NCBI GenBank assembly: GCA_048940925.1
Contig: JBHLOC010000073.1
Location: 1-13,269 of the forward strand
DNA length: 13,269 nucleotides
Origin: Promethearchaeota archaeon
GTDB lineage: Archaea; Asgardarchaeota; Lokiarchaeia; Sigyniarchaeales; SOKP01
Direction of reading: 5' to 3'
Made by a program: the position numbers and the translations under genes. Under the pieces are notes generated by a model. The model was not told where the DNA came from. It ran no database searches and saw only the letters and a list, made by a program, of their open reading frames with translations. This document shows positions 582 to 13,269 of this stretch, in pieces (within the stretch, counting starts at the first letter, position 1; each line of letters opens with the position of its first letter).

Positions 582-1745
582 CTATAAAGAAGAATATACA
601 GCTTTGATCAACCGTTCTCCCCGGGGATCTCCTATAATTTTGAAACCTTGTTTATTCATTACATAAGCGAGACTCATTTTTTCATCCAAGTCTGCAATAA
701 TTAATGAACCTCCATAGCCCCCCCAATAGAGTGTGCGCGGATTAGGACAAATTTTGCTCATTAATCCACCAGCATTATTGATCCCAAATCCTAACCCGAA
801 TTTAATAGGCATGTTAAGAACTAGATCTTTCCCTTCAGTTCTACTCTCAAGAGTTTTTTCAATTATTTCATGAGATAAAAACCGAACTCCATTTAATTCT
901 CCCCCGTTAGCTAATATGGCTCCAACTTTTGCAACAGCACGGGCATTTCCATGACCATTTGCTGCGGGAATTTCAGCAGATTGCCATTCTTTTGTCATTA
1001 CAGCTTCATGTGTCATGTCATATGGATTTGTAAAAACTTTTTGAAACAATGTTTTACGCATTATAAGCCCCATCATCCACATCATAATTTTCCCCTTAAT
1101 TCCTTCCATTTTTGGCGGAATCAATTCTGCTACCCTCGGTCGTTCTAAATCGCTGAGTCCTATATGAAAATCAATATCCAGGGGTCCTGTTATTTCTTCT
1201 TTCAAAAATCGACCGAGACTTTTCTTTGAAACTCTTTTCACAACTTCACCTAAAAGAAAGCCAAAAGTATATGCATGATAACCGCTCCTTTGTCTATCAT
1301 CCCACCAAGGTTTTTGACGACTAAGAGCTTCTGTGACCTTTTTCCAGTTATAAAAATCTTTTAGCTCTATTTTTTCATCAAAACCGGCTAACCCTGCTGT
1401 ATGAGATAATAAATGCCCAACTGTTATTTTTTCCTTTCCCGATTGCGCAAATTCAGGCCAATAATCAGCTACAGGAGCGTCTACATCAATATTTTTTTTA
1501 TCAGCGAGCATCAACACACAAATTGCAGTCGCAACTTTGGATGTAGAATAAACATTCACAATCGTGTCTTTTTGCCATGGTTTCGTTTTTGCTGCATCTG
1601 CATAACCCCCCCATAAATCTATTACTGTTTTTCCTTCAATGGTTACTGAAAATGATGCACCGCATTCCTTTCCGGTATTCAAGTTTTTCTCAAATGCTTT
1701 TTTCACTTTGCCAAATTTTTCTTCACAATATCCTGAAATCTCCAT
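582..1745 (-). CDS. Serine hydrolase, class C beta-lactamase / family VIII esterase-like
   Basis: SxxK motif (VYSTSK), LLSHTAGL, catalytic Tyr in GYHA, and C-terminal WGGYGGS; 387 aa, no signal peptide. Confidence 0.93.
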   Translation of the reverse strand: MEISGYCEEKFGKVKKAFEKNLNTGKECGASFSVTIEGKTVIDLWGGYADAAKTKPWQKDTIVNVYSTSKVATAICVLMLADKKNIDVDAPVADYWPEFAQSGKEKITVGHLLSHTAGLAGFDEKIELKDFYNWKKVTEALSRQKPWWDDRQRSGYHAYTFGFLLGEVVKRVSKKSLGRFLKEEITGPLDIDFHIGLSDLERPRVAELIPPKMEGIKGKIMMWMMGLIMRKTLFQKVFTNPYDMTHEAVMTKEWQSAEIPAANGHGNARAVAKVGAILANGGELNGVRFLSHEIIEKTLESRTEGKDLVLNMPIKFGLGFGINNAGGLMSKICPNPRTLYWGGYGGSLIIADLDEKMSLAYVMNKQGFKIIGDPRGERLIKAVYSSL

Positions 1746-1869
1746 TTGTTATCACTTCTGTTTAACCTTACAATTTTTGGTATTTTTAATAGTTACTTGT
1801 TTTTATCACTACAACGTGAGGTTCCAGTTTTTTTAAATTTTGTCCCAATTTTCTATGAAAAATTGAAGA

Positions 1870-1912
1870 AAAAGTAAATTCAAAGTCTGATTTCAATGAA
1901 AATTTAGTGAAA
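1870..1912 (+). repeat. Dispersed ~44-bp palindromic intergenic element, copy 1
   Basis: AAAAGTAAATTCAAAGTCTGATTTCAATGAAAATTTAGTGAAA; 33/36 identical to 4619-4654. Confidence 0.9.
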
Positions 1913-1950
1913 TATAGTGGATAGCTAACAATAATTCTTCTTAAGCAATT

Positions 1951-1963
1951 GAAAGTTTTATAA
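1951..1963 (+). promoter_or_regulatory. Putative archaeal BRE-TATA promoter (GAAAG-TTTTATAA)
   Basis: Purine-rich BRE directly followed by TTTTATAA, about 245 nt upstream of the ferredoxin ATG. AT-rich background limits certainty. Confidence 0.4.
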
Positions 1964-2206
1964 TGCTTGAAGATAGACAAGTCGACGCATGTTTGGGTTT
2001 TTGATAAGGGTTCCAATACTTTTAAAGAATTGGATTTTATCTCTAAATAACTTTCTCTTCAAACTTAAATAATTTTAAACAGGATTTGTGGTAAATATAC
2101 ACTTCTACACATCATTAGATATGTATTCTCTCATCGTGTATAAGCTTATTACAAATAAGAGAATAATTAATAACAAATGACCATTTACAAATAGTGTGAT
2201 ATTGAT

Positions 2207-2743
2207 ATGGAAAACGTAAGTAATCTGTGGATAAAAAGAAATTATGAAAAATGCAGCGGTTGCAGAAGATGTGAAATTGCCTGTTCTCTACATCACGAAG
2301 GGAAAATTTGGCCGGAAGCTTCAAGGGTTAGAGTTTTCATGTTTGTTCCAGGAGTTGAAATACCTCATCTCTGCTTCCAGTGTAATGATTACCCTTGTGT
2401 TGAGGCATGTCCCGAGGAAGCTCTATCAGTAGATGATCATACAGGAGCCGTAATCACTGATAAATCGAAATGTACCGCATGTGGAGCGTGTATTGATGCC
2501 TGTCCTGGAAGAGTGCCACATCTCCATCCTCAAGATGATTATATAGTGATTTGCGATTTATGTGGTGGAAATCCGAAATGTACAGTTAGTTGTCAGGAGG
2601 GTAAGTGGGATACTTTGATTCTCTTAGAGAGTCAAGATGCAGAAATGAAAAAAATACCAGCTAACATTCCTAAGAAACTCGCATATGAAACTGCGAGAAA
2701 AATTTTGGGTGAAAAGGCAACTGAAGAGGTGTATGAATGGTGA
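2207..2743 (+). CDS. wor5S: Four-cluster [4Fe-4S] polyferredoxin subunit of a WOR5-type tungsten oxidoreductase
   Basis: 16 Cys in four groups: CSGCRRCEIAC, CFQCNDYPCVEAC, CTACGACIDAC, CDLCGGNPKCTVSC. The HEGxIWPEASRxRVF segment matches my recollection of the P. furiosus WOR5 small subunit. The stop overlaps the next ATG. Confidence 0.88.
   Translation: MENVSNLWIKRNYEKCSGCRRCEIACSLHHEGKIWPEASRVRVFMFVPGVEIPHLCFQCNDYPCVEACPEEALSVDDHTGAVITDKSKCTACGACIDACPGRVPHLHPQDDYIVICDLCGGNPKCTVSCQEGKWDTLILLESQDAEMKKIPANIPKKLAYETARKILGEKATEEVYEW
2726..2731 (+). promoter_or_regulatory. Shine-Dalgarno site GAGGTG for the oxidoreductase large subunit
   Basis: GAGGTG 5 nt before ATG 2737, inside the upstream gene, consistent with translational coupling. 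Confidence 0.75.
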
Positions 2744-4614
2744 ATGGATATGCGGGAAAATTTCTGGAAATAGATCTGACAAATAAGAAAACTGAAGAAA
2801 TTACATTTTCAGATAAAGTTCTTCAGGATTATATGGGAGGAAGGGGTCTAGGAGTAAAAATATTATGGGATAGGCTTGGAAATAAGTGGGAGACGATTGA
2901 TCCTCTAGGTCCCGAAAACATTTTACTAATGCTTACTGGCCCTTTTACAGGATATTTTCCTGGTGCAAGAAGTTGTGTAACCGGAAAATCCCCTCAGGGT
3001 AATGGAATAGTAGGTTCCACAGTCGCGGGAGAGTTTGGTGTGGAATTAAAATGTGCCGGTTATGACGGAATAATTTTTACGGGAAAGGCTGAAAAACCGA
3101 GTTATGTATTCATTTGTGATAATAACATAGAGATTAAAGATGCTTCACATATATGGGGAAAAACTGGCAGAGAATCTATGCGTTATCTCATAAGGGATTC
3201 GATTAATGATATCAAAAAGATTCATCCTAATTATGGGGAGTTTAAGGAACCTTCAGTTCTTTATATAGGTCCTGCTGGAGAAAACAAATCCAGAGTAGCA
3301 GCCGTAATAGCAAAATATACACATGCTGCTGGTTATGGAGGATATGGGGGTGTAATGGGATCTAAAAATTTGAAAGCTGTGGTTGTAAAAGGTTTTGGTC
3401 CCTTACCAGATGTGTTTGATCAGGATAAAATGCTCGAGCTTTCGCAAAAATTTTCAAATAATTGTTTTACGATAGAATTTTTTAGACGTTGGGGTACAGG
3501 ATCGGGAGGTTACACATTTGGTGCTGAGTCAAGTTCAGAACCAGTTAAAAATTGGCAGGAAGAATGGCATAATGAGGAGAGTTATAAAGGTGAAGAATTT
3601 GATAAACTTTGGGTAAAAAAATACTGGGGAGATTTTGGTTGTCCTGTTACATGCCTAAAATTAGCAGTGTTAAGAGATGGAAAATATGCTGGGGCTATTT
3701 GTGATAATCCTGATTACGAGCTTGAGGCATTCCTAGGGCCAAATTTGGGTATTTTTTCACCAGAACAGAACATTTATCTATCTTACGTAATAGAAGGATT
3801 AGGATTTTGTGGAATTCAAGGTGGTGCAATTTTAGGTTTTACAGGAGAATTATTCCAAAGAGGTATTGTTACAAAAGAAGATTTAGGAGGAATTGATCTT
3901 AGATGGGGTAACGTTGATGCATTTGCAGAATTAGCCAGAAAAATTGCTTTTAGAGAAGGTATTGGGGATATATTAGCAGAAGGTATATATCGAGCGGCTT
4001 TGAAACTTGAAGAAATGAAAAAAACCGAAGTTCTTAAATATGCAATTCATCTTAAGGGCATGGCAATCGGAGCACACGGCCTTAGAAGCGGTAAGGACAT
4101 GGTTACAACTACTCCAATTGGATATAGTGTGTCAGTTCAAGCAGGAGACCATACATCATCAGCTGCTCTTCCTATTGATGGTCGTGGAAGTGAGATGCGT
4201 TCAATTATGAGTGATTCTGGAGTAATTTGTTTCTTTACCACCTTTACTTTAGCCTTTGATGAAATTGCGAGTTTCTATCAAGCAGTTACAGGTTGGGAAT
4301 TAACAAAAGAAAATTGGTTCAGTGAAAAAGGTTTAAGAATTTTGCAATTACAGAGAACTGTGGCACTGCTTGGAGGACCGGATGCTGAGTGGAGATCAAA
4401 ACATGATGATACTCTGCCGTCTAGATTTTGGGAACCTCTCCCATCGGGACCGTTTAAAGGAGTATCAATAGATAAAAATACATTCGAGAAATTAAAATCC
4501 GAATATTACACAACAGTGGGGTGGAATGATGAAGGTGTACCCTCTTCTGAAATATTACAAAAGCTGGATTTAAATGATGTTGAATTGAAGCTTAAAAAAG
4601 AGGAGTTGTTATAA
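2737..4614 (+). CDS. wor5L: Tungsten-containing aldehyde:ferredoxin oxidoreductase family catalytic subunit, WOR5 clade
   Basis: AOR-family motifs GGRGLG, KSP, LKCAGYDGIIFTGKA, IGPAGEN, GVMGSKNLKAV, PDYE. WOR5-like motifs HAAGYGGYG, SSEPVKNWQEE, YWGDFGCPVTC (Asp at the first cluster-Cys position), GAHGLRS, SVQAGDH, LLGGPD. Confidence 0.92.
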   Translation: MVNGYAGKFLEIDLTNKKTEEITFSDKVLQDYMGGRGLGVKILWDRLGNKWETIDPLGPENILLMLTGPFTGYFPGARSCVTGKSPQGNGIVGSTVAGEFGVELKCAGYDGIIFTGKAEKPSYVFICDNNIEIKDASHIWGKTGRESMRYLIRDSINDIKKIHPNYGEFKEPSVLYIGPAGENKSRVAAVIAKYTHAAGYGGYGGVMGSKNLKAVVVKGFGPLPDVFDQDKMLELSQKFSNNCFTIEFFRRWGTGSGGYTFGAESSSEPVKNWQEEWHNEESYKGEEFDKLWVKKYWGDFGCPVTCLKLAVLRDGKYAGAICDNPDYELEAFLGPNLGIFSPEQNIYLSYVIEGLGFCGIQGGAILGFTGELFQRGIVTKEDLGGIDLRWGNVDAFAELARKIAFREGIGDILAEGIYRAALKLEEMKKTEVLKYAIHLKGMAIGAHGLRSGKDMVTTTPIGYSVSVQAGDHTSSAALPIDGRGSEMRSIMSDSGVICFFTTFTLAFDEIASFYQAVTGWELTKENWFSEKGLRILQLQRTVALLGGPDAEWRSKHDDTLPSRFWEPLPSGPFKGVSIDKNTFEKLKSEYYTTVGWNDEGVPSSEILQKLDLNDVELKLKKEELL

Positions 4615-4618
4615 TTCC

Positions 4619-4662
4619 AAAAGTAAATTCAGAGTCTAATTCCAATGAAAATTTCATTGAAA
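4619..4662 (+). repeat. Dispersed ~44-bp palindromic intergenic element, copy 2
   Basis: AAAAGTAAATTCAGAGTCTAATTCCAATGAAAATTTCATTGAAA; starts 4 nt after the oxidoreductase stop, between convergent genes. Confidence 0.9.
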
Positions 4663-4695
4663 AAGTCCGATAAGAATTATTTAAATGGGACTTAA

Positions 4696-5529
4696 CTATT
4701 TTTTATTATTTTTTTTTGTATCATCTTTAAAATCACGTGTCAGGTTTTTATATCCATAATTTAGCAAAATCAGTATTACAAAGATGAAAATGATAATATT
4801 GCTGAGTATTCTGATTTGAACATCAAATGAAAATAATTGTCCAAAAAAATTTATGCAAAAATGAAATAACATCGCTGATAAAATACTTCTATTAGTGTTA
4901 TTAAATATTAAGGTGTAAATGATGGAATGAGGAAAGAGCATTATAAAAAACATCCAAAATTCTATAGATAACAAACCAAGACTTTCCTGATATGTCCCAT
5001 TGATAAAAAATAATGGTATATGCCATATTCCCCAAAATAAACCAATAATTATACTTGAAATAAAAGCATTGTATTTACTTTGGAGTGGATCTAGGACATA
5101 GCCACGCCAGCCGAATTCTTCTGCTATAACTCCAATAATTAAAAAAATTACAGAAACTAATAAACTAGATAAAAAATTAGGATCAAATGTTATCCCACTA
5201 CCATTGAATAGAATGGACAATCCTCCTGCCATTAAAAGCGGAGTTAGTGACAATATTACGATTGCTCCGTACCATTGAAAGTTGATACGTTTAAAATCTC
5301 GAGATCTGTACCAAAAGTCTTTTACCTCGTCTTTACTCTTAGTTAAATATGTTAATGAAATACCAATTAATGAAGGACCAAACCCTCCAAGAGCATAAAA
5401 GATTATTGTTGGAAAGGAGGTATAAGTTTGATTTAAATAAACTGCTATACTCCAAAAAAGCCATGAAAACACGAAGGTTAATAAGAAAAAAATCCATGGA
5501 TTAGCAAGGTACAATTTCGTTTTGTTCAT
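4696..5529 (-). CDS. CPBP family (CAAX protease/Abi) intramembrane glutamic protease
   Basis: EExxxR (AEEFGWRG), FxxxH (FWGIWH) and HxxxN (HFCIN) motifs; about 8 hydrophobic helices. Confidence 0.93.
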   Translation of the reverse strand: MNKTKLYLANPWIFFLLTFVFSWLFWSIAVYLNQTYTSFPTIIFYALGGFGPSLIGISLTYLTKSKDEVKDFWYRSRDFKRINFQWYGAIVILSLTPLLMAGGLSILFNGSGITFDPNFLSSLLVSVIFLIIGVIAEEFGWRGYVLDPLQSKYNAFISSIIIGLFWGIWHIPLFFINGTYQESLGLLSIEFWMFFIMLFPHSIIYTLIFNNTNRSILSAMLFHFCINFFGQLFSFDVQIRILSNIIIFIFVILILLNYGYKNLTRDFKDDTKKNNKK

Positions 5530-5821
5530 AAGAGGTTTCTATCTTTTTTTTAATTTAAATGCTTGTAGAGCTAGAGCATTTCATAATAAAAATCTTCGTG
5601 AAATGGTTACTGAACTATATGCTATTCTTAAAATATTTAATTATTGAAAATTAAAAGCTGAGTTTTTCATAAATTTATTCTAAGACCATTAAAGTTCAGG
5701 AGATAACGACTGTGAGATTCGTTTTGTAGAAATACATGAAATAACCATAGGGTTCTTTTCTAATTTTTTCTTCACTTTTTTTAACTTCACGATAAAAATC
5801 CATAATTAATGGACTATAAAA

Positions 5822-5838
5822 GAAAGATATTTATATAA
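5822..5838 (+). promoter_or_regulatory. Putative BRE-TATA promoter of the 5888 gene
   Basis: GAAAGATA-TTTATATAA about 50 nt upstream of ATG 5888. It is flanked by palindromes TCCAT-AATTA-ATGGA (5799-5813) and TCACGTGA (5847-5854). Confidence 0.55.
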
Positions 5839-5887
5839 GATTAAATTCACGTGATTCAAAAAAATAATTAATAAAAGAGAAAATAAC

Positions 5888-6658
5888 ATGGAAAAATCGA
5901 ATTTTGCTCGACAATTTGAAGAATTTGGCATAAAGATGTATGTTCTGGCGATACTTTCTATAATAAGTATTTTTACCAGTGGAATTATCTCATTGGTAAT
6001 GTTTATTGTTATGCTTTTATCGCTAGGGGACATCAAAGACGCAAATGTAGAATTGAAAAACGAAGAGCTAGATAAGTTTCGAAAATATATCATATATGCG
6101 GTAGTCGTTGGGATTGTTGGAGCCATAATAATTATCGGTATTGCCCTTATCGTAGCATTTCTTTTTATTTCAGCACTCCCTGGATTTACATATAGCGCAC
6201 CTATGACAGTAGAGGAATTTAAACAAATAGCGCCATTAATTCAGATTCTTTTGTTAGTAATGTTGGGAGGTTTTCCTATTGGGGCTGTTTCTTTATGGCT
6301 TCTTATGATTGCATGGAAAAATTTCCAGATGTTCTTAGACAGGAATTCTGGATTATTCCCAAATATTGATAGTGCGAAAGTTATAGATGGTTCTGGAAAG
6401 ATGAAAAAGTCGTATCTGTATCTTTTTATTTCACTAATAATTGGAGCAGTTTTAGTTCTGATTGCGTTTTTTACATTTCCTCAAATCAAAACATTGATTA
6501 TTGACTACATCGAAGGGACTGAACCCTCAATGGCTTTACTTGGAGGTATGACAGCAGCTTTTGCCATACCAGGTGCTGCGATAGCAATTCTTGGAATAAT
6601 AAGCTTCATTTTAATGATAATTGGCTACTTCAAGGTCTCAGAATTAAGACACCTTTAA
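5888..6658 (+). CDS. Hypothetical polytopic membrane protein (about 6 TM helices)
   Basis: 256-aa ORF with six long hydrophobic segments, an upstream TATA box and a downstream T-tract. Confidence 0.85.
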   Translation: MEKSNFARQFEEFGIKMYVLAILSIISIFTSGIISLVMFIVMLLSLGDIKDANVELKNEELDKFRKYIIYAVVVGIVGAIIIIGIALIVAFLFISALPGFTYSAPMTVEEFKQIAPLIQILLLVMLGGFPIGAVSLWLLMIAWKNFQMFLDRNSGLFPNIDSAKVIDGSGKMKKSYLYLFISLIIGAVLVLIAFFTFPQIKTLIIDYIEGTEPSMALLGGMTAAFAIPGAAIAILGIISFILMIIGYFKVSELRHL

Positions 6659-6670
6659 TTTTAAAATATC

Positions 6671-6688
6671 TTTTTTTTTTTTCTTTTC
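6671..6688 (+). terminator. Archaeal-type oligo-T terminator
   Basis: T12-CTTTTC beginning 13 nt after the stop at 6658. Confidence 0.55.
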
Positions 6689-6889
6689 ATATATAAATTT
6701 TTTGCAGCAGCACTCATTGCTCGATATTTGAATCCTTGATCTCCTTTAGAGTCTTTCTGAAATTTTCATTAATCTTTACTAAATGGATATTTATTGATAT
6801 CCAATAATCATTCTAAATCAAATGTAGATTTTTAAAACAATAAAAATCTGAAACAAAAGAAAATTTGTTTTTTAAAAATGTTAGTTAAA

Positions 6890-7297
6890 TTATAAATTAA
6901 AATATGGTCTAAATATTTTTCTCATCCAACTGAAATCAAATGTGAGAAGAGAATGAGTTACACATTGATTATTATCAAAATTTGTCTCAAATTTAAAATG
7001 TATTTCTATAATGCCAGTTTTTTCAACTCTATGATACCCTTTTGGAATTTTGGGTAAAACAAAACCCTTTAAATTTGTGATATCAATTATATCATTATAA
7101 TTTAGTTGGATAAAAGTCAATATATCTTCTAAAACTCTCTGAATTTTTTGATTAAATTCTAAGGGTGTTATTCCAAATTTGTTTTTAATCATCTTAAAAT
7201 ATTCATGTCTCTTTCTTAAAGATCCTTTTTGATAAGTTTCTAAAGTATACCATTTATCTGCTGCCAATAAGAACTGTTTTGGTATAAAATATTCCAA
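6890..7297 (-). CDS. Hypothetical protein (135 aa, TTG start)
   Basis: 408-nt open frame in very AT-rich DNA, not overlapping other genes, with soluble-protein-like composition; no recognisable motif. Confidence 0.6.
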   Translation of the reverse strand: MEYFIPKQFLLAADKWYTLETYQKGSLRKRHEYFKMIKNKFGITPLEFNQKIQRVLEDILTFIQLNYNDIIDITNLKGFVLPKIPKGYHRVEKTGIIEIHFKFETNFDNNQCVTHSLLTFDFSWMRKIFRPYFNL

Positions 7298-7402
7298 AAA
7301 ATTATTTAATATTAAATTAAAACTAATAGGAATATTAAGGCACTGAAAGCTTTTTGGAAATTGATACTTTTTTAGTATTATAGCGGTTAATGTTCATAAA
7401 TA

Positions 7403-9604
7403 CTAAAAAGCAATAGAACCTTTTGATATTTGAAGTGAAAGTCTAGCAAGCAAATAAGAAATTGATGATTCAGCCCCTTGATTCATGTTTAGAGAATACT
7501 TCCCAATACCATCGTGGCAACCACCAGTTAAATTGTTGTAAACTTCTTGATTCAGAGAATTTTTTCCAAGGAACCAAGTAAATGCTTCGATTGCAAGTTT
7601 CATATACCTATTCTCTTTAGTAGTATCATATGCAACGCACAATGTTTGTACCATTGAAGCAACATCAACTGGTTGTTGGTCATAACTAGCTTTATGGCCA
7701 TTTTTAAGATACCATCCGTTCTGACCAATAGGAGCAAATTTTCCGTCTTTAAACGAAATAGAAATGAGGAAGTCTAAAGATTCTTTGGCAATTATTAAAT
7801 ATTTGTCATCTTTAGTTGTTTTATAGCAAAAAAAAAGAGCCTCAGGTAATTTACTATTTGAATAAGTAAGGTAATTTTCGAACCAGTTCCATTTCTCACT
7901 ATTACAATCCTTATAGAGCTGGGCTAGATAATCGGCTAATTTTTTAATTCTAATGACTTCAGAATTTTTTATTACATTATAGAAATAGAGTCCTATTAAA
8001 ATAAAAGAAATTGCTCTTGGAGATCTAATCTTGTCGACAGCTTTTTTTGCATTTTCAAAAATCAGTTCTGCCTCTACTCTTAATTCAATTGGAATATTTG
8101 TTGTAGCAATTAAATGACCAAGAGCCATCATTGCTCTTCCATGGGCGTCCTCGCTCCATTGCTCGAGATTTACAATCTTTTTGTAATTAACAAAATTATA
8201 CAACTTATTTTCATTTTTGTGGACATACTTTATAAAATTCAGATAAATTTTCATCATTTTCAATTTAGTATTATCTTTAAATAACTTATAATATAGAGTA
8301 CAAGCTAACAAGGCTCGAGCATTGTCATCTAGAGTATATCCAGATAATTTATCTGGTTTTGCATAATTTGCAAATTGCATTATCCCAAAATCATCCGTAA
8401 GATTCTTGATATGATCAAACTTGATTTCTGGATATGACATTCCACATTTTTCTAAATCAGGAATAACTCGCTTGAAAACATTATAATATGATATTGCTAC
8501 ATTTGGCCAGGTCATGCACCTAGAAAATGAATAATTATTTCTTTCCATTTCTTCTCTTAAGAGGGGATTTGATAATATTTTTATTAGAGCATTAGTATAT
8601 GAATTAGGATCTCTGAACTTTACTAAAAGACCTCTTTCAGGTGTAATAATATCTTTAGCATAAATGAAGGGTGTAGAGATAATCGCTCTACCGCAAGATA
8701 TTGCATATGCTAAAGTGCCACTAACAATCTGATTAGGATTCAGATTTGAAGAAATATAGATATCTGTTGCTAGTAGAAATTTTACTATTTCTTCTAGAGT
8801 CATATACCTATTATAGAATTCTACATTTTTTTCAAGGTCAAATTCCTTCACTTTTTCCTCGAGAAAATTTCTATACTTTTCTCCTTCTTTTTTCCTTACT
8901 TTGGGATGAGTCTTACCAATTATTAAATATAAAATATTAGAATATTTTTTAACAACCTCAGTTAACGACTCAATTACATATTCATAACCTTTCCCAGAGT
9001 TAATCAGGCCAAAAGACGATAAAACAATTTTATCATCAATGCCTATTACTGTTTTTTCTTTTATACTGTCATCAAATGACACTGTTGGCGTTCCATGAGG
9101 TATTACGAATATCTCTTTTTTAATATCATAATCTTTTCTTAAAATTTCGATCCCCTTGTTAGTCATAACAACTAAATAAGAGGATTTTTTTGCTAGCTTG
9201 CGAACGATTTTTTTTAATTTATCCTCTGGATTTGGGATGACTGTATGGAAGGATATGACGACTGGTTTTTTCACAATTTCTAAAAATTTTATTAAATAAT
9301 TTCCATATTCTCCACCAAAAATACCAAATTCGTGTTGTATATTTATTAACTTTATAGAATTTATCTCATTTACTCTTTTCGCTGCCTTTTTATATGCTGA
9401 AATATCATTATCGGCAATATCAAATAAAACATCTTTAATATTTTCATAATTATTATCGTTATTATTATTCATAACGAGGATTTTTGATTTTATAAAAGGA
9501 GAAAATTTCTTATCCATTGCTGTTCTTAAATCTTTTGTAAAAGTAGCAATCCCACACTTTCTGGGAGGATATGTGGCCATATAAAGGATCCAATTAGATT
9601 CCAT
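7403..9604 (-). CDS. GT4 (GT-B) glycosyltransferase fused to a C-terminal (alpha/alpha)6 six-hairpin-glycosidase-like domain
   Basis: N-terminal half: TYPPRKCGIATFT, IQHEFGIFGG, IPHG, SFGLINSGKG, QIVSGTLAYA. C-terminal half: GYTLDDNARAL, SEDAHGRA, WNWFENYLTY, DQQPVD, TGGCHDG, NQGAES. Confidence 0.9.
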   Translation of the reverse strand: MESNWILYMATYPPRKCGIATFTKDLRTAMDKKFSPFIKSKILVMNNNNDNNYENIKDVLFDIADNDISAYKKAAKRVNEINSIKLINIQHEFGIFGGEYGNYLIKFLEIVKKPVVISFHTVIPNPEDKLKKIVRKLAKKSSYLVVMTNKGIEILRKDYDIKKEIFVIPHGTPTVSFDDSIKEKTVIGIDDKIVLSSFGLINSGKGYEYVIESLTEVVKKYSNILYLIIGKTHPKVRKKEGEKYRNFLEEKVKEFDLEKNVEFYNRYMTLEEIVKFLLATDIYISSNLNPNQIVSGTLAYAISCGRAIISTPFIYAKDIITPERGLLVKFRDPNSYTNALIKILSNPLLREEMERNNYSFSRCMTWPNVAISYYNVFKRVIPDLEKCGMSYPEIKFDHIKNLTDDFGIMQFANYAKPDKLSGYTLDDNARALLACTLYYKLFKDNTKLKMMKIYLNFIKYVHKNENKLYNFVNYKKIVNLEQWSEDAHGRAMMALGHLIATTNIPIELRVEAELIFENAKKAVDKIRSPRAISFILIGLYFYNVIKNSEVIRIKKLADYLAQLYKDCNSEKWNWFENYLTYSNSKLPEALFFCYKTTKDDKYLIIAKESLDFLISISFKDGKFAPIGQNGWYLKNGHKASYDQQPVDVASMVQTLCVAYDTTKENRYMKLAIEAFTWFLGKNSLNQEVYNNLTGGCHDGIGKYSLNMNQGAESSISYLLARLSLQISKGSIAF

Positions 9605-9902
9605 TCTAAATCACATTTAAAAGATGAATATATCTAACAAAAAAAATAGGTTTTGCTTTTTTCATTAGAGATAAAGCAATTAAGTTAGAATCTTACCACT
9701 TTTAAATTTTTAGATGTTATTTATCCCAATTTTACTAGATAAGGCTCTGCTTTTTTGATTACAATGATAAAAAATGTCTGATCTTTAAAAAAACAGAAAA
9801 TTAAATTCCACAATATAAATTTCAATAAATTAATTTTAAAAAAAGACAAAAACATTAAAAAATTTAAGATCTTTAATATTTGAACTATTTTATTATTAAT
9901 TG

Positions 9903-11117
9903 TTATTCTATTGATCTAATGAATAATTCGTCTGAATCAAATCTACACAGAACTTTGTTTTCCCTTGCTAACCAACCAATTGCCATCAGTAAAACTTTTT
10001 CGTTTTGATGCAATAAATTCTTAAGGTGAGTTAAACTTTTTTCTTCTGTAAATGTAAGATTAAAAATCTGTCCTGCTAAAAAGCCAATCCCAACTTCTAG
10101 TTCAGACGCCAAGAGTTCGTGAAGAAGTTTATGCAGATTTACCGATACTACGGCTATTCTCTTATCGGCGGCACCATAATAAATATAAAGCCTTTCACCA
10201 AATATTGCAGTGCCTGTAGGGAAAACAACATTATTTATATCTCCAATTTTTTCATAATCTTCGGTTGGCGAAAAAAGAGGTTCTTTAAGTCGTCCTATTA
10301 CTTTAAGCGGATTTTGTTTATCAAGGAGGGCGACACTTGCGTGATACACCTTACCTTTATTAGAATCCTCTACAGAATGATATAACATAAGCCAACCTCT
10401 TTCAGTTTCTATTAATGGTGCTCCAGCACCGATATTTCTTGATTCGTATCCAAATTTTGGCTCCATTAAAACATAATCGCCTAATTTTTTTAGATAATCC
10501 TTCCAGAAATCGATTGTCAAATCTTTAAAATCATCGAAACAAACAATTTGAATATCAGGTAATATTCTATGGAACAGTACAAACTTATTGTTGTATTTTT
10601 TTGGAAAAATGAATGAATCTTTTTCCCATAGGAGTACATCTTCGGCCACGACATCCTTATAATATGATATAAAGAAGTGATACTTTTCTTTTAACTTTGA
10701 TAAACGGAAAAATTGCCCTGCTTCATCATATCTCATTTTAGCTGAAAGTATTCCATGTTTTTCCCACGTTTTTAAGTCTTTACTAGTTGCGTATGCTACT
10801 AACGCATTTTTTCCATCATAGGCCGTGTAAAACAGATAATAAGTACCATCAAGTAAAACGATTCTAGGATCTTCTGTACCATGTGTTTCATAATCATGTT
10901 CAGGAAACAATACAGGACTTTCTCTCCTTTCTACGATATTCAATGGCCCTTCCAATTTACAATAACCAATACTTGAATAATTTCCTTCTTTTACAGCCCG
11001 ATAGAATAAATGTAATGTATCTCCTTGCTGGACCACTGTAGGGTTTAATACAGCCTGATTTTCAAACTCATTCTCCGTTGCTTCCAAGAGAACTCCTTCT
11101 CTTCGTACTAGCACCAT
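9903..11117 (-). CDS. GH130 beta-mannoside phosphorylase/mannosidase-like enzyme with a C-terminal DUF2582-like winged-helix domain
   Basis: GH130 motifs VLNP, FYRA, EDPR, YTAYDG, EKD, HR, IGAG, LYH, NVVFPTG, YYGAAD. The tail reads GIGFLAGQIF...MAIGWLARENKV. I prefer the start at ATG 11117 (MVLVRREG) over the track's TTG at 11165. Confidence 0.88.
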   Translation of the reverse strand: MVLVRREGVLLEATENEFENQAVLNPTVVQQGDTLHLFYRAVKEGNYSSIGYCKLEGPLNIVERRESPVLFPEHDYETHGTEDPRIVLLDGTYYLFYTAYDGKNALVAYATSKDLKTWEKHGILSAKMRYDEAGQFFRLSKLKEKYHFFISYYKDVVAEDVLLWEKDSFIFPKKYNNKFVLFHRILPDIQIVCFDDFKDLTIDFWKDYLKKLGDYVLMEPKFGYESRNIGAGAPLIETERGWLMLYHSVEDSNKGKVYHASVALLDKQNPLKVIGRLKEPLFSPTEDYEKIGDINNVVFPTGTAIFGERLYIYYGAADKRIAVVSVNLHKLLHELLASELEVGIGFLAGQIFNLTFTEEKSLTHLKNLLHQNEKVLLMAIGWLARENKVLCRFDSDELFIRSIE

Positions 11118-11202
11118 AATTAGGTATAACGATTTCTTTCTTATTAATTCATGGATGGTATCCAATATTCTTGATTATAAGGGAGAGGGTGTTTCTTAAT
11201 AA

Positions 11203-11211
11203 TATATAAAA
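11203..11211 (-). promoter_or_regulatory. Putative TATA box for the GH130 gene
   Basis: TTTTATATA on the - strand about 90 nt upstream of ATG 11117. Confidence 0.4.
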
Positions 11212-11239
11212 GAATAGCTAATTAAATCGAATCGTAAGA

Positions 11240-11652
11240 ATGACTTTTATCAACTATTAATGAAAGATGTAATATTTGGTTAAAATGCTCATAAAAGTGT
11301 TTTGTATATTGCGACAAAACTCAGCAATATGAAACTCTGGCAGGTTTCTGGTATTATTGTCGTTCCTCTGATAATTCCCTTCACTATCACCTTGATAGGA
11401 TATATTAAGGAAAAGGAGGAAAAAAAGATTATAATATCTCTAGTAATTATCCGATTCTATCTCTTTTTGGAAGTATTATTAGACTACATCCCCTTAACTC
11501 CATTCAGAGAAATACACACACTTCATATCCTTTATCTTATAGTATTTTATATTGCTGAATTCGCCATGATAAGCGTGACTTTCAAAAAAAAGAAAATGAG
11601 ATAATTGGTTCTTGAAACATTCGATGTATTGATAGGATGTTTGATTTAGTAA
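11240..11652 (+). pseudogene. Probable decayed small membrane-protein gene
   Basis: The 11302-11604 frame continues with plausible protein on both sides of in-frame TAA stops: YQLLMKDVIFG*NAHKSVLYIATK... (stop 11281) and ...KKMR*LVLETFDVLIGCLI** (stop 11602). ATG 11240 is out of frame by one base at a T run. Charged residues or Pro occur inside TM-like segments (VIIRFYL, YIPLTP). Confidence 0.6.
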
Positions 11653-11748
11653 ACTAAATTAATGTAAAAATGCATTAAAATTCTATGAAAAGTGTTTAAA
11701 ACATAGATTATAACAAATTTCGATCTTTTTATGAAATATTAAACGAAA

Positions 11749-12309
11749 TTAAGTCGAGTTCTTGTTTTTTTCGAATAACCTTGGTAAAAAATTGACTAAT
11801 TCACCCATCTCTTCTTTGTTATGCTTACGTAGCCCTTCGATAAACTGTTTTGGAACTCTGGCAGGTAATCGAAACGTTGTGCGTAACTTTGTTCCCTTTT
11901 CAATTGATTCATATTCATGTAAAGCCCAACTTGTTGGATTGTCATTGTGATCAAGCATACTCCCTACTAATGCATGGTCATACTCAATTGGTATTGGTGA
12001 AGTACTCGGATCTTCCCATCGGATTCTTAACGTACTGGAGACTCCACCAATATTTTCATCAACCTTATGAACCGCCCCAATATGACCTTTTTCAGGCGAA
12101 ACTTCCCACTGAAAAGATTGATGGTCTTTCGGGTGCCATAATTTATAACGCTCGGTTGTATCTATATTATCCCACCACCAATCTATCATTTCTGGTGTAA
12201 CTCCATGTAATATATGATCGACTACTACATCGATCGTTTGACCTTTTGACATCTTAAGCATTTGTTCCATAATTTTATTCGATTCGTTACTCAGAGGCTC
12301 TTTTGACAT
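11749..12309 (-). CDS. DAPG (2,4-diacetylphloroglucinol) hydrolase PhlG-like protein
   Basis: Motifs GVTPEMIDWWW, RYKLWHPKDH, HxVDENIGG and HNKEEMGELxxFLP are typical of the family. The start is placed at ATG 12309 because a GGAG SD lies at 12323-12320. Confidence 0.85.
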   Translation of the reverse strand: MSKEPLSNESNKIMEQMLKMSKGQTIDVVVDHILHGVTPEMIDWWWDNIDTTERYKLWHPKDHQSFQWEVSPEKGHIGAVHKVDENIGGVSSTLRIRWEDPSTSPIPIEYDHALVGSMLDHNDNPTSWALHEYESIEKGTKLRTTFRLPARVPKQFIEGLRKHNKEEMGELVNFLPRLFEKNKNST

Positions 12310-12447
12310 ATTTTTTAATCTCCATTTCAATAAAAACAACTTCTTAATAAAAGCTAATGATTAGTTGTTTTTAAACTCACAATTTTCCAATTTAAAATTC
12401 TTTAAGGAAGCTATGAATCATTAAGAAAGGAAAACCGGAATTTCGTT

Positions 12448-12490
12448 AAAGGTCAATTCAGAGTCTGATTTCAATGTAAATCATTTGAAA
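12448..12490 (+). repeat. Dispersed ~44-bp palindromic intergenic element, copy 3
   Basis: AAAGGTCAATTCAGAGTCTGATTTCAATGTAAATCATTTGAAA; 31/34 match to the three-copy consensus over its first 34 nt. Confidence 0.88.
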
Positions 12491-12543
12491 TTTACTCATC
12501 TTTTCTCCTCTTCTAAATATATAATAACACGGTTGTAAGGATA

Positions 12544-12720
12544 TTATGTGTCATAATCTGATTCGTGGAATTCGTCTCCTTTTTCTCCCATTTCCTCATC
12601 CTCATCATTTTTTTCATTCCAGTCCCGGTCTTCTTCTTTTGTTTTGGCTTCCTCGCGATTTCTACTTATCTCATTCCATTTATCAAATTTAAATTGCTTT
12701 TTACCTTTATTTCTTTTCAT
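12544..12720 (-). CDS. Small highly charged protein (58 aa), basic N-terminus and acidic C-terminus; below the ORF-track cutoff
   Basis: ATG 12720 to TAA 12546-12544 encodes MKRNKGKKQFKFDKWNEISRNREEAKTKEEDRDWNEKNDEDEEMGEKGDEFHESDYDT. The coding strand is purine-rich and higher in GC than the flanks, with an AT-rich TATA-like region upstream. Confidence 0.65.
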   Translation of the reverse strand: MKRNKGKKQFKFDKWNEISRNREEAKTKEEDRDWNEKNDEDEEMGEKGDEFHESDYDT

Positions 12721-13269
12721 AATTGTCTTTCTTAAGTATTTGTTCTAATATGCATAACAAATTTTTATTTATAATTTTAAGTATGAAAAGTTTAAATTAT
12801 AAGATTTCTAAAACTGTTAATTACTCTGATCCAAGAATAATTTTAATAGAGTACACTTTATATTTATCCTAACACGTTATAAATGCAATAGAAATATATC
12901 TTTTTCTAATTTCTTTCCTAAATTTAGTATCTCCCTCCCCCGTGGTGCCCCCTCCTAATAATAGGAAATAAAAGAACTTATTAATAACAATTTATCTTTA
13001 AAACTGTCTTTATGGTTTAATTTCTATTTTTAAACCTAAATTTTATACATATATATAAGGTTTAACGTGAAATACCCGAATTTAATCTGGTTTGATTAGT
13101 GCAAATAAACAAGGTTATTATAATGGCTATCTTTTCTTTTTTAATTTTTTCTTTTGAAAATAAAAAAATTATAGAAAAAGCTAAAAAGAAGTCATTATTA
13201 TCATATTAGATTATAAAGATATGTTTTGAATTTAACTGAATCCTAGATTTTCAAATCGCACATTGAGTT

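What the first reader, a model, noticed from the sequence alone, without database searches (positions are those of the whole stretch)
1870..12490. Unannotated ~44-bp doubly palindromic element repeated three times, always in the same orientation
Seen in sequence: copies at 1870-1912, 4619-4662 and 12448-12490 share the consensus AAAAGTAAATTCAGAGTCTGATTTCAATGAAAATTTCATTGAAA (copy 1 vs 2: 33/36; copy 3 vs consensus: 31/34). The consensus has two adjacent dyads, TCAGA-G-TCTGA and TTTCAATGAAA-A-TTTCATTGAAA. All copies are intergenic and on the + strand, but in different contexts: divergent, convergent and tandem genes. The convergent copy argues against a simple promoter operator. Inference: a REP-like/MITE-like family, a chromosome-organising protein site, or recombination sites separating functionally unrelated gene modules as in a cassette array. 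No recombinase or transposase is present in the window.
Basis: partly seen in the sequence, partly recalled or inferred. Interest (0 to 1): 0.8.

Follow-up and report, generated by a model that had tools for sequence, protein, structure and literature searches.

The report
Integrase docking site joining Asgard cassettes
The repeated 44-base motif is real. It is most likely the docking site of a small mobile-element integrase in Loki-type Asgard archaea: in this window it joins swappable packets of metabolic genes, and in relatives the same site lies inside giant toxin-like genes, where it appears to be the point at which new tips are plugged in.

Summary
Confirmed. The three copies belong to a family of 31 intergenic sites in this Lokiarchaeia genome, clustered and co-oriented. 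The site occurs in 101 of 134 genomes of the family and in 0 of 19 from other families. Homology between loci switches inside the site (108 pairs share only the upstream flank, 67 only the downstream, 0 both). The window's ferredoxin-AOR unit recurs in 15 genomes with other neighbours. In relatives the site sits exactly 81 bp from an RHH + 302-aa tyrosine-integrase module, and it bounds 5-9 kb elements as direct repeats. This genome lacks that integrase but keeps relics of the element end (window 1819-1869; contig C60). The site also reads in frame inside toxin-like genes, one of at least 11,793 aa, just before a peptidase-like domain and a variable tip; displaced tips lie downstream. Best reading: an att site of a tycheposon-like element family that builds both toxin-tip stacks and metabolic cassette arrays. 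No biochemistry, no proven circle, no empty chromosomal allele. I found no paper describing it; this scan noted the same system earlier on other DNA (e1-5591010, e1-5561159, e1-2367583).

The parts
1819..1869 (+). Relic of the integrase-proximal end ('tail') of the autonomous element, abutting site 1
   Evidence: Aligns with the tail of intact element L193. In run X5 a contig that matches from 1819 continues upstream into the intact element tail (table 7). 71 of 303 sites carry such relics, 20 to over 160 nt long.
1870..1913 (+). Site copy 1 (att-like recombination site; core = positions 1-35, crossover probably near positions 12-19)
1870..4662 (+). Ferredoxin + aldehyde:ferredoxin oxidoreductase cassette, 2749 bp from site to site
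   Evidence: Found in 15 other genomes of the genus at 87-93% identity, with other neighbours on both sides. Homology always ends at 4614-4664.
2207..2743 (+). 4Fe-4S polyferredoxin, cargo
   Evidence: Pfam Fer4 families
2737..4614 (+). AFOR-family aldehyde:ferredoxin oxidoreductase, cargo; its stop codon lies 4 bp before site 2
   Evidence: PF02730 + PF01314
4619..4662 (+). Site copy 2 (no tail relic)
4663..12447 (.). 7.8-kb accessory interval between sites 2 and 3 (CAAX protease, 256-aa membrane protein, GT4-family glycosyltransferase, GH130 phosphorylase, DAPG-hydrolase-like gene and small ORFs); a composite, not shown to move as one unit
   Evidence: Parts of it occur separately elsewhere (5793-6693 in G067; 11712-11929 on G000 C43).
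12448..12491 (+). Site copy 3 (no tail relic)
12492..12813 (.). Head of the next cassette, with a 58-aa acidic ORF (12544-12720, minus strand)
   Evidence: 94% identical to the DNA after a site in G018 (L004/L446), which has a different upstream flank
582..1745 (-). Beta-lactamase-family serine hydrolase, last gene of the cassette that ends at the tail and site 1
   Evidence: PF00144. Its cassette status is inferred from the tail relic.

Best explanation
The motif is the attachment (recombination) site of a family of small integrative elements of Loki-type Asgard archaea. In site orientation an intact element reads: site, cargo (often a toxin-like tip plus a partner gene), small genes, a helicase/ATPase-like gene, a 302-aa tyrosine integrase and a 172-aa RHH protein (both reversed), an 81-bp tail, site. 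SHOWN: this layout, the fixed spacing, the direct repeats, the homology switch inside the site, and the in-frame position of the site in giant genes. INFERRED: the integrase recombines double-stranded sites near positions 12-19 (centre of the TCAG-x-CTGA dyad). Each insertion duplicates the site and pushes older cargo downstream, which gives co-oriented arrays. Where the target site lies in a giant membrane-anchored gene, insertion fuses a new peptidase-like domain plus tip to the body and strands the old tip. Elements decay by internal deletion and gene capture into integrase-less cassettes such as the window's ferredoxin-AOR unit, which stay mobile when an element supplies the integrase in trans. 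About 0.8 for 'att site of this integrase family', 0.65 for integrase-driven tip exchange, 0.5 that the site began as coding sequence of the giant gene.
For: 26 of 31 sites have a neighbour within 10 kb (random mean 3.3) and 147 of 148 adjacent pairs are co-oriented (128/128). Flank test: 108 upstream-only, 67 downstream-only, 0 both; positions up to 0 follow the upstream flank, 36 and above the downstream flank. Site exactly 595 nt before the integrase (81 before the RHH gene) in 7 of 15 close-clade integrases with enough flank, plus 3 variant or shifted sites, against 0 of 28 distant relatives and 0 of 15 XerA genes. A diverged site pair sits beside 68-71% identical integrases in G103 and in no other genome searched. 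Catalytic R151, K175, R245, Y278 invariant, H242 and H268 at least 90% conserved. Five cassette ends keep only positions 1 to 14-17. RHH-gene relic 81 nt from a site on G000 C60. L351 shows body, site, new tip, partner, element, tail, site, old tip. G014 giant ORF: site at residue 11,766 of at least 11,793, about 7 N-terminal TM-like helices, LamG domains. Tips share a domain with invariant Ser and His that reaches the TIGR02228 cut-off in one copy.
Against: No biochemical test. G000 lacks the integrase, which is rare (16 of 134 family genomes, counting distant relatives) while sites are common, so action in trans is inferred. 5 of 15 close-clade integrases have no intact site at the expected place. 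No empty chromosomal allele was found and no circle is proven (one search is ambiguous). Core variants are private, so the crossover is mapped only roughly. Only 11 of 296 sites are followed by the peptidase-like domain, and toxin-domain hits are below Pfam cut-offs. Pair counts are not independent and come from MAGs.
Confidence: 0.8

Rival explanations
1. The sites are dif-like and are recombined by the host XerA, as with Acinetobacter pdif modules; the element's integrase is only a passenger, or XerA does the work in genomes that lack it.
For: XerA is the only PF00589 protein in G000 and is present in nearly all genomes of the genus. The integrase is XerA-like (best PDB hit 5hxy).
Against: dif sites are 11+6+11 bp inverted repeats, essentially one per chromosome (PMC2958812; PMC6449649); this core is 35 bp with weak arms (6 of 9 match) and about 30 copies. 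The site keeps a fixed distance to one integrase clade and co-varies with it. XerA would not explain that spacing. An auxiliary role of XerA is not excluded.
Confidence: 0.1
2. The sites are passive scars of past element insertions; cassettes are exchanged later by host homologous or microhomology recombination at the 35-bp identity, as proposed for Rhs tips.
For: Many tail relics are decayed; one cassette occurs with and without its tail, joined at a short repeat; the integrase is missing from most genomes.
Against: The core stays near consensus across at least two large genera while cargo diverges 10-15%; half-site ends cluster at positions 14-17; the tail-less AOR cassette lies in many unrelated contexts with its end fixed at the site.
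Confidence: 0.07
3. The motif is a protein-binding site (transcription factor or chromosome organiser) or a REP/MITE-like repeat.
For: Intergenic in 31 of 31 cases in G000; contains short dyads.
Against: No bias in the orientation of flanking genes (downstream gene same strand 12, opposite 17); it marks homology breaks; no Y1/RAYT gene; hairpin z-scores -0.02 to -1.7; it occurs in frame inside coding genes.
Confidence: 0.03

Closest known systems
Tycheposons and their islands in Prochlorococcus (bioRxiv 10.1101/2020.12.28.424599)
   Same: Small transient elements with a tyrosine integrase, a helicase/primase-like gene and cargo; tandem integration at one att site of about 40 nt pushes older material along; remnants and non-element cargo dominate the islands.
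   Different: The target is not a tRNA. The site is protein-coding in giant genes and is reused at 13 or more places per genome; it stays intact between cassettes; an RHH partner gene is present; the host is archaeal.
Integrons and CALINs, including archaeal ones (PMC9668308)
   Same: Co-oriented recombination sites between 1-3-gene cassettes; arrays without an integrase gene; newest cassette first.
   Different: No attC-like hairpin; the site is conserved in sequence; cassette genes lie in either orientation with their own upstream regions; the integrase is far below the IntI cut-off and travels inside a cassette.
Rhs / CDI / Vibrio T6SS C-terminal displacement (PMC2935791; PMC5361080; PMC3482391)
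   Same: Constant body, variable tip, adjacent partner gene (LRR and small proteins), displaced orphan tips downstream.
   Different: Those papers invoke homologous or illegitimate recombination and say that no integrase is known to take part; here a fixed in-frame site and a linked integrase are present. Toxin activity is not shown.
pdif / dif modules of Acinetobacter plasmids and archaeal XerA/dif (PMC6449649, PMC2958812)
   Same: Short tyrosine-recombinase-type sites that bracket accessory gene modules without a recombinase nearby.
   Different: Not a 28-bp 11+6+11 site; direct rather than inverted flanking; chromosomal; has its own integrase clade.
Aloposons of Heimdallarchaeum (PMC8813620)
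   Same: Asgard mobile elements linked to giant proteins.
   Different: Aloposons carry tandem giant genes and integrate at tRNAs; here a small element targets a site inside a giant gene.

Membership tests
Tyrosine-integrase att site (integrative element) | Direct repeats of the site bound an element that carries an integrase | tested here: met
   L191 5.1 kb, L193 6.3 kb, L164 9.1 kb, L351 6.9 kb
Tyrosine-integrase att site (integrative element) | Integrase with intact R-K-H-R-H-Y catalytic residues | tested here: met
   PF00589 above cut-off
Tyrosine-integrase att site (integrative element) | Homology between loci breaks within the site | tested here: met
   108 / 67 / 0 pairs; half-sites end at positions 14-17
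Tyrosine-integrase att site (integrative element) | Excised circle or empty target allele observed | tested here: inconclusive
   One contig joint 4628 to 1885 with only 32 nt on the short side; no empty chromosomal allele
Tyrosine-integrase att site (integrative element) | The integrase recombines the site | not testable with these tools
   needs an in vitro or heterologous assay
Tycheposon | Integration at tRNA/tmRNA genes with partial tRNA repeats | tested here: not met
   No Rfam hit in the window or in 10 array loci; 1 of 313 sites has a tRNA within 600 nt; multi-intron tRNAs could be missed
Tycheposon | Integrase + replication-like gene + cargo in a small element | tested here: inconclusive
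   Integrase and cargo present; the 410-505-aa P-loop genes give only weak Pfam hits
Integron / CALIN | attC folds as a single-stranded hairpin | tested here: not met
   z from -0.02 to -1.67 on the 44-mers
Integron / CALIN | IntI-type integrase | tested here: not met
   TIGR02249 51 bits against a cut-off of 265
Integron / CALIN | Cassette genes mostly in one orientation | tested here: not met
   downstream gene same strand 12, opposite 17
Integron / CALIN | Co-oriented sites clustered within a few kb | tested here: met
dif / pdif (Xer) | 28-bp site, 11-bp inverted arms around a 6-bp spacer | tested here: not met
   35-bp core, best arms 9 bp with 6 matches; criteria
dif / pdif (Xer) | Recombined by the host Xer protein | not testable with these tools
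   The element integrase is not XerA (96 bits against 220); XerA binding untested
REP / MITE | Stable stem-loop and RAYT/HUH transposase, or terminal inverted repeats with free orientation | tested here: not met
Polymorphic toxin system (relatives only, not the window) | Constant body, variable C-terminal tip, adjacent partner gene, orphan tips | tested here: met
Polymorphic toxin system (relatives only, not the window) | Tips are recognised toxin domains and are toxic; partners neutralise them | tested here: inconclusive
   Three tips hit PF14424 below cut-off; activity untested

The most novel reading that the evidence does not exclude
A dedicated integrase element uses a site written in the reading frame of giant Asgard toxin-like genes to exchange toxin tips, and the same site has spread into a family-wide, integron-like but mechanistically separate gene-cassette platform that shuffles metabolic genes with the integrase supplied in trans.
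Probability: 0.55. Interest if true: 0.85.

Novelty: new variant of a known kind. Interest (0 to 1): 0.72.

Why it matters
It would name a concrete route of gene flow in Asgard archaea: a defined site, a defined integrase and dozens of bounded cassettes per genome, found across a whole Lokiarchaeia family. Papers on Rhs and T6SS arrays say that no integrase is known to drive toxin-tip displacement; this system is a directly testable case. A 35-bp site with a 302-aa integrase is also a candidate tool for a lineage without genetics, and the site can be used to mine Asgard accessory genes from metagenomes.

Tried and rejected
Rfam: nothing in the window or arrays. Viral contigs: no site and no close integrase. 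Association with XerA: no site within 1.5 kb of 30 xerA loci. The 400-450-aa integrases of the genus have no site at a fixed distance; one site lies 3 kb from such a gene in G008. Serine recombinase: one broken copy on C79, a contig without sites. Y1/RAYT: none. Giant-gene body and tips: not found in G000 with these queries. Mapping the crossover by shared core variants failed because core variants are private. The search for empty chromosomal alleles gave none. Read laying: the joint 4628 to 1885 in run X1 could be a circle of the AOR cassette or just another site; summed contig depth was not used. Foldseek on the tip domain gave only weak hits (E 4e-3) to signal peptidases, mixed with chromodomains. 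An ORB-like origin reading was considered from memory and dropped: about 30 copies at 13 or more places mark cassette joints. Literature searches found no description, but the library is incomplete.
Full report
Observation. The window is a whole contig (C15) of a 4.8-Mb, 29.6% GC genome. Exact matches of the motif in GTDB genomes come almost entirely from records named Promethearchaeota/Lokiarchaeia or other Asgard-labelled or unnamed archaeal MAGs. A PWM finds 31 copies in this genome and none in three shuffled controls. None lies inside an ORF of 75 aa or more; 26 have a neighbour within 10 kb (random mean 3.3, maximum 14 in 5000 draws); 147 of 148 adjacent pairs across all loci are co-oriented. 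The site is found in 101 of 134 genomes of the family, mainly in two genera (51/53 and 38/42), and in none of 19 genomes of other families searched. L193:7078-7121:- is a near-consensus copy.

The site is a synteny breakpoint. Among 313 distinct sites, 108 pairs share only the upstream flank, 67 only the downstream flank, and none both (the pairs are not independent). Bases up to position 0 follow the upstream flank, bases from 36 on follow the downstream flank. Position 15 follows neither, as expected (inference) of a base inside a strand-exchange region. Five cassette ends keep only positions 1 to 14-17 and then run into foreign DNA; three of them are ends of the window's own AOR cassette. 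These could partly be later deletions, so the crossover is placed only roughly at 12-19, the centre of the first dyad. The window's ferredoxin-AOR unit occurs in 15 other genomes of the genus at 87-93% identity, with other neighbours on both sides and usually a site on one or both sides; its homology always ends at 4614-4664. The DNA after site 3 follows a site in G018 with another upstream flank. The 7.8 kb between sites 2 and 3 is a composite and is not shown to move as a unit.

The recombinase. G000 has a single PF00589 protein, the XerA-like gene on C41, about 100 kb from the nearest site. Some relatives carry a second kind: a 172-aa NikA-like RHH protein followed by a 302-aa tyrosine recombinase with intact catalytic residues, below the XerA, XerC/D and IntI cut-offs. 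The site lies on the opposite strand exactly 81 bp before the RHH gene: 7 of 15 close-clade integrases with enough flank, plus 3 variant or shifted sites, against 0 of 28 distant relatives and 0 of 15 XerA genes. Elements of 5-9 kb are bounded by direct copies. In G103 two integrases of 68-71% identity each sit beside the same diverged site, changed mostly at positions 12-16 and 22-24 and found in no other genome searched. This fits co-variation of site and enzyme, but it is one genome. Relics tie the integrase-less arrays to these elements: 71 of 303 sites carry 20 to over 160 nt of the element end. Window copy 1 carries about 50 nt, and on G000 contig C60 the first 25 codons of the RHH gene survive 81 nt from a site. 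In run X5, a sediment metagenome that holds much of the window's AOR region, a contig matching from 1819 continues into the intact element end, so such elements are present in a community with related strains.

The site as coding sequence. One reading frame is open through the core in 230 of 267 sites and gives the peptide KVNS(E/A)SDFNENS. In L002, L021, L023, L067 and L192 a long ORF runs through the site, as it does in L351. In G014 the site is at residue 11,766 of an ORF of at least 11,793 aa with about seven N-terminal TM-like helices and LamG domains. After the site many tips share about 140 aa and then diverge. That domain has an invariant Ser and His, passes the archaeal signal peptidase I cut-off in one copy and lacks a membrane anchor, so a self-cleaving release domain is a reasonable inference. 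Three tips hit a toxin deaminase family below cut-off, and LRR or small genes follow the tips. L351 shows the order that an insertion predicts: body, site, new tip, partner, helicase-like gene, integrase, RHH, tail, site, old tip and partner. Only 11 of 296 sites are followed by this domain, and G000 has neither body nor tips by these queries. The window's copies are therefore the metabolic, non-autonomous end of the system. Related giant genes in other genomes lack the site.

Mechanism and limits. Shown: layout, spacing, breakpoints, relics, in-frame position. Inferred: that the integrase acts on the site, that it acts in trans on tail-less cassettes, that tips are toxic, and that the site began in the giant gene. 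Not obtained: an empty chromosomal allele or a proven circle. Rivals are XerA acting on the sites (0.10), passive scars with host recombination (0.07) and a protein-binding repeat (0.03).

Comparison. It works like tycheposon islands but has no tRNA target. It looks like an integron array but fails the attC, IntI and gene-orientation tests. It resembles Rhs/T6SS tip displacement, for which the papers read report no integrase. It is not a dif/pdif site by form. I found no paper on it. Earlier AI notes of this scan reached the same reading on other DNA. e1-5591010 (cassette joints, missing integrase, tycheposon comparison) was seen, before I found the integrase, and gave that lead. e1-5561159 and e1-2367583 (tip swapping) were seen, after I had found the in-frame toxin link. 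They are not independent support. Verdict: real, a new variant of integrative-element att arrays, interest 0.72.

Noticed in passing
G000:C72:13580-13745 (L479:1081-1245, +): GC-rich multibranch structure closed by a 7-bp acceptor-like stem, about 90 bp upstream of a two-site array; z -2.6, no ARAGORN or Rfam hit. Possibly a multi-intron tRNA or an unknown RNA.
   Followed up: partly
window 12544-12720 (-): 58-aa very acidic ORF at the head of a cassette; related DNA in L004, L016, L406, L450 at 82-94% identity. Function unknown.
   Followed up: partly
L432 (G067:C86) near 9525 vs window 6620-6700: In G067 the window's 256-aa membrane gene is joined straight to the AOR cassette through a half-site; the window has the same gene end without a site. 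Either a secondary-site insertion or a microhomology deletion.
   Followed up: partly
L037:1761 vs L110: The same cassette with and without a 136-nt element tail, joined at a short repeat: a snapshot of tail loss.
   Followed up: partly
L187, L188 (integrase at 10001): Distant relatives (50-55%) of the RHH-integrase module lack the site; one heads a provirus-like region with a portal-like gene, both lie near the PCNA-TFS gene block, and another (L176) sits by a tRNA-like sequence.
   Followed up: no
L378:12340-14058 and many element loci: Runs of small paralogous genes beginning with a 'K-x-R-x-I-I-I-K-x-P-x-L-R-x-I-R' motif follow giant genes and tips and also stand alone: a likely partner (immunity) family.
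   Followed up: no
G000:C41:157981-158424: A two-site array with an 83-aa ORF interrupts an mvhD/hdrA gene cluster.
   Followed up: no
window 7403-11165 (-): GT4-family glycosyltransferase with a C-terminal extension plus GH130 phosphorylase pair; a similar pair stands upstream of the giant gene in G014 (L378:3144-8670).
   Followed up: no
G061:C135, G049:C3, G003:C7: Giant ORFs of 12,456-14,833 aa related to the G014 body but without a recognisable site.
   Followed up: partly
L401:11388 and 14848: The only adjacent pair of sites in opposite orientation among 148.
   Followed up: no
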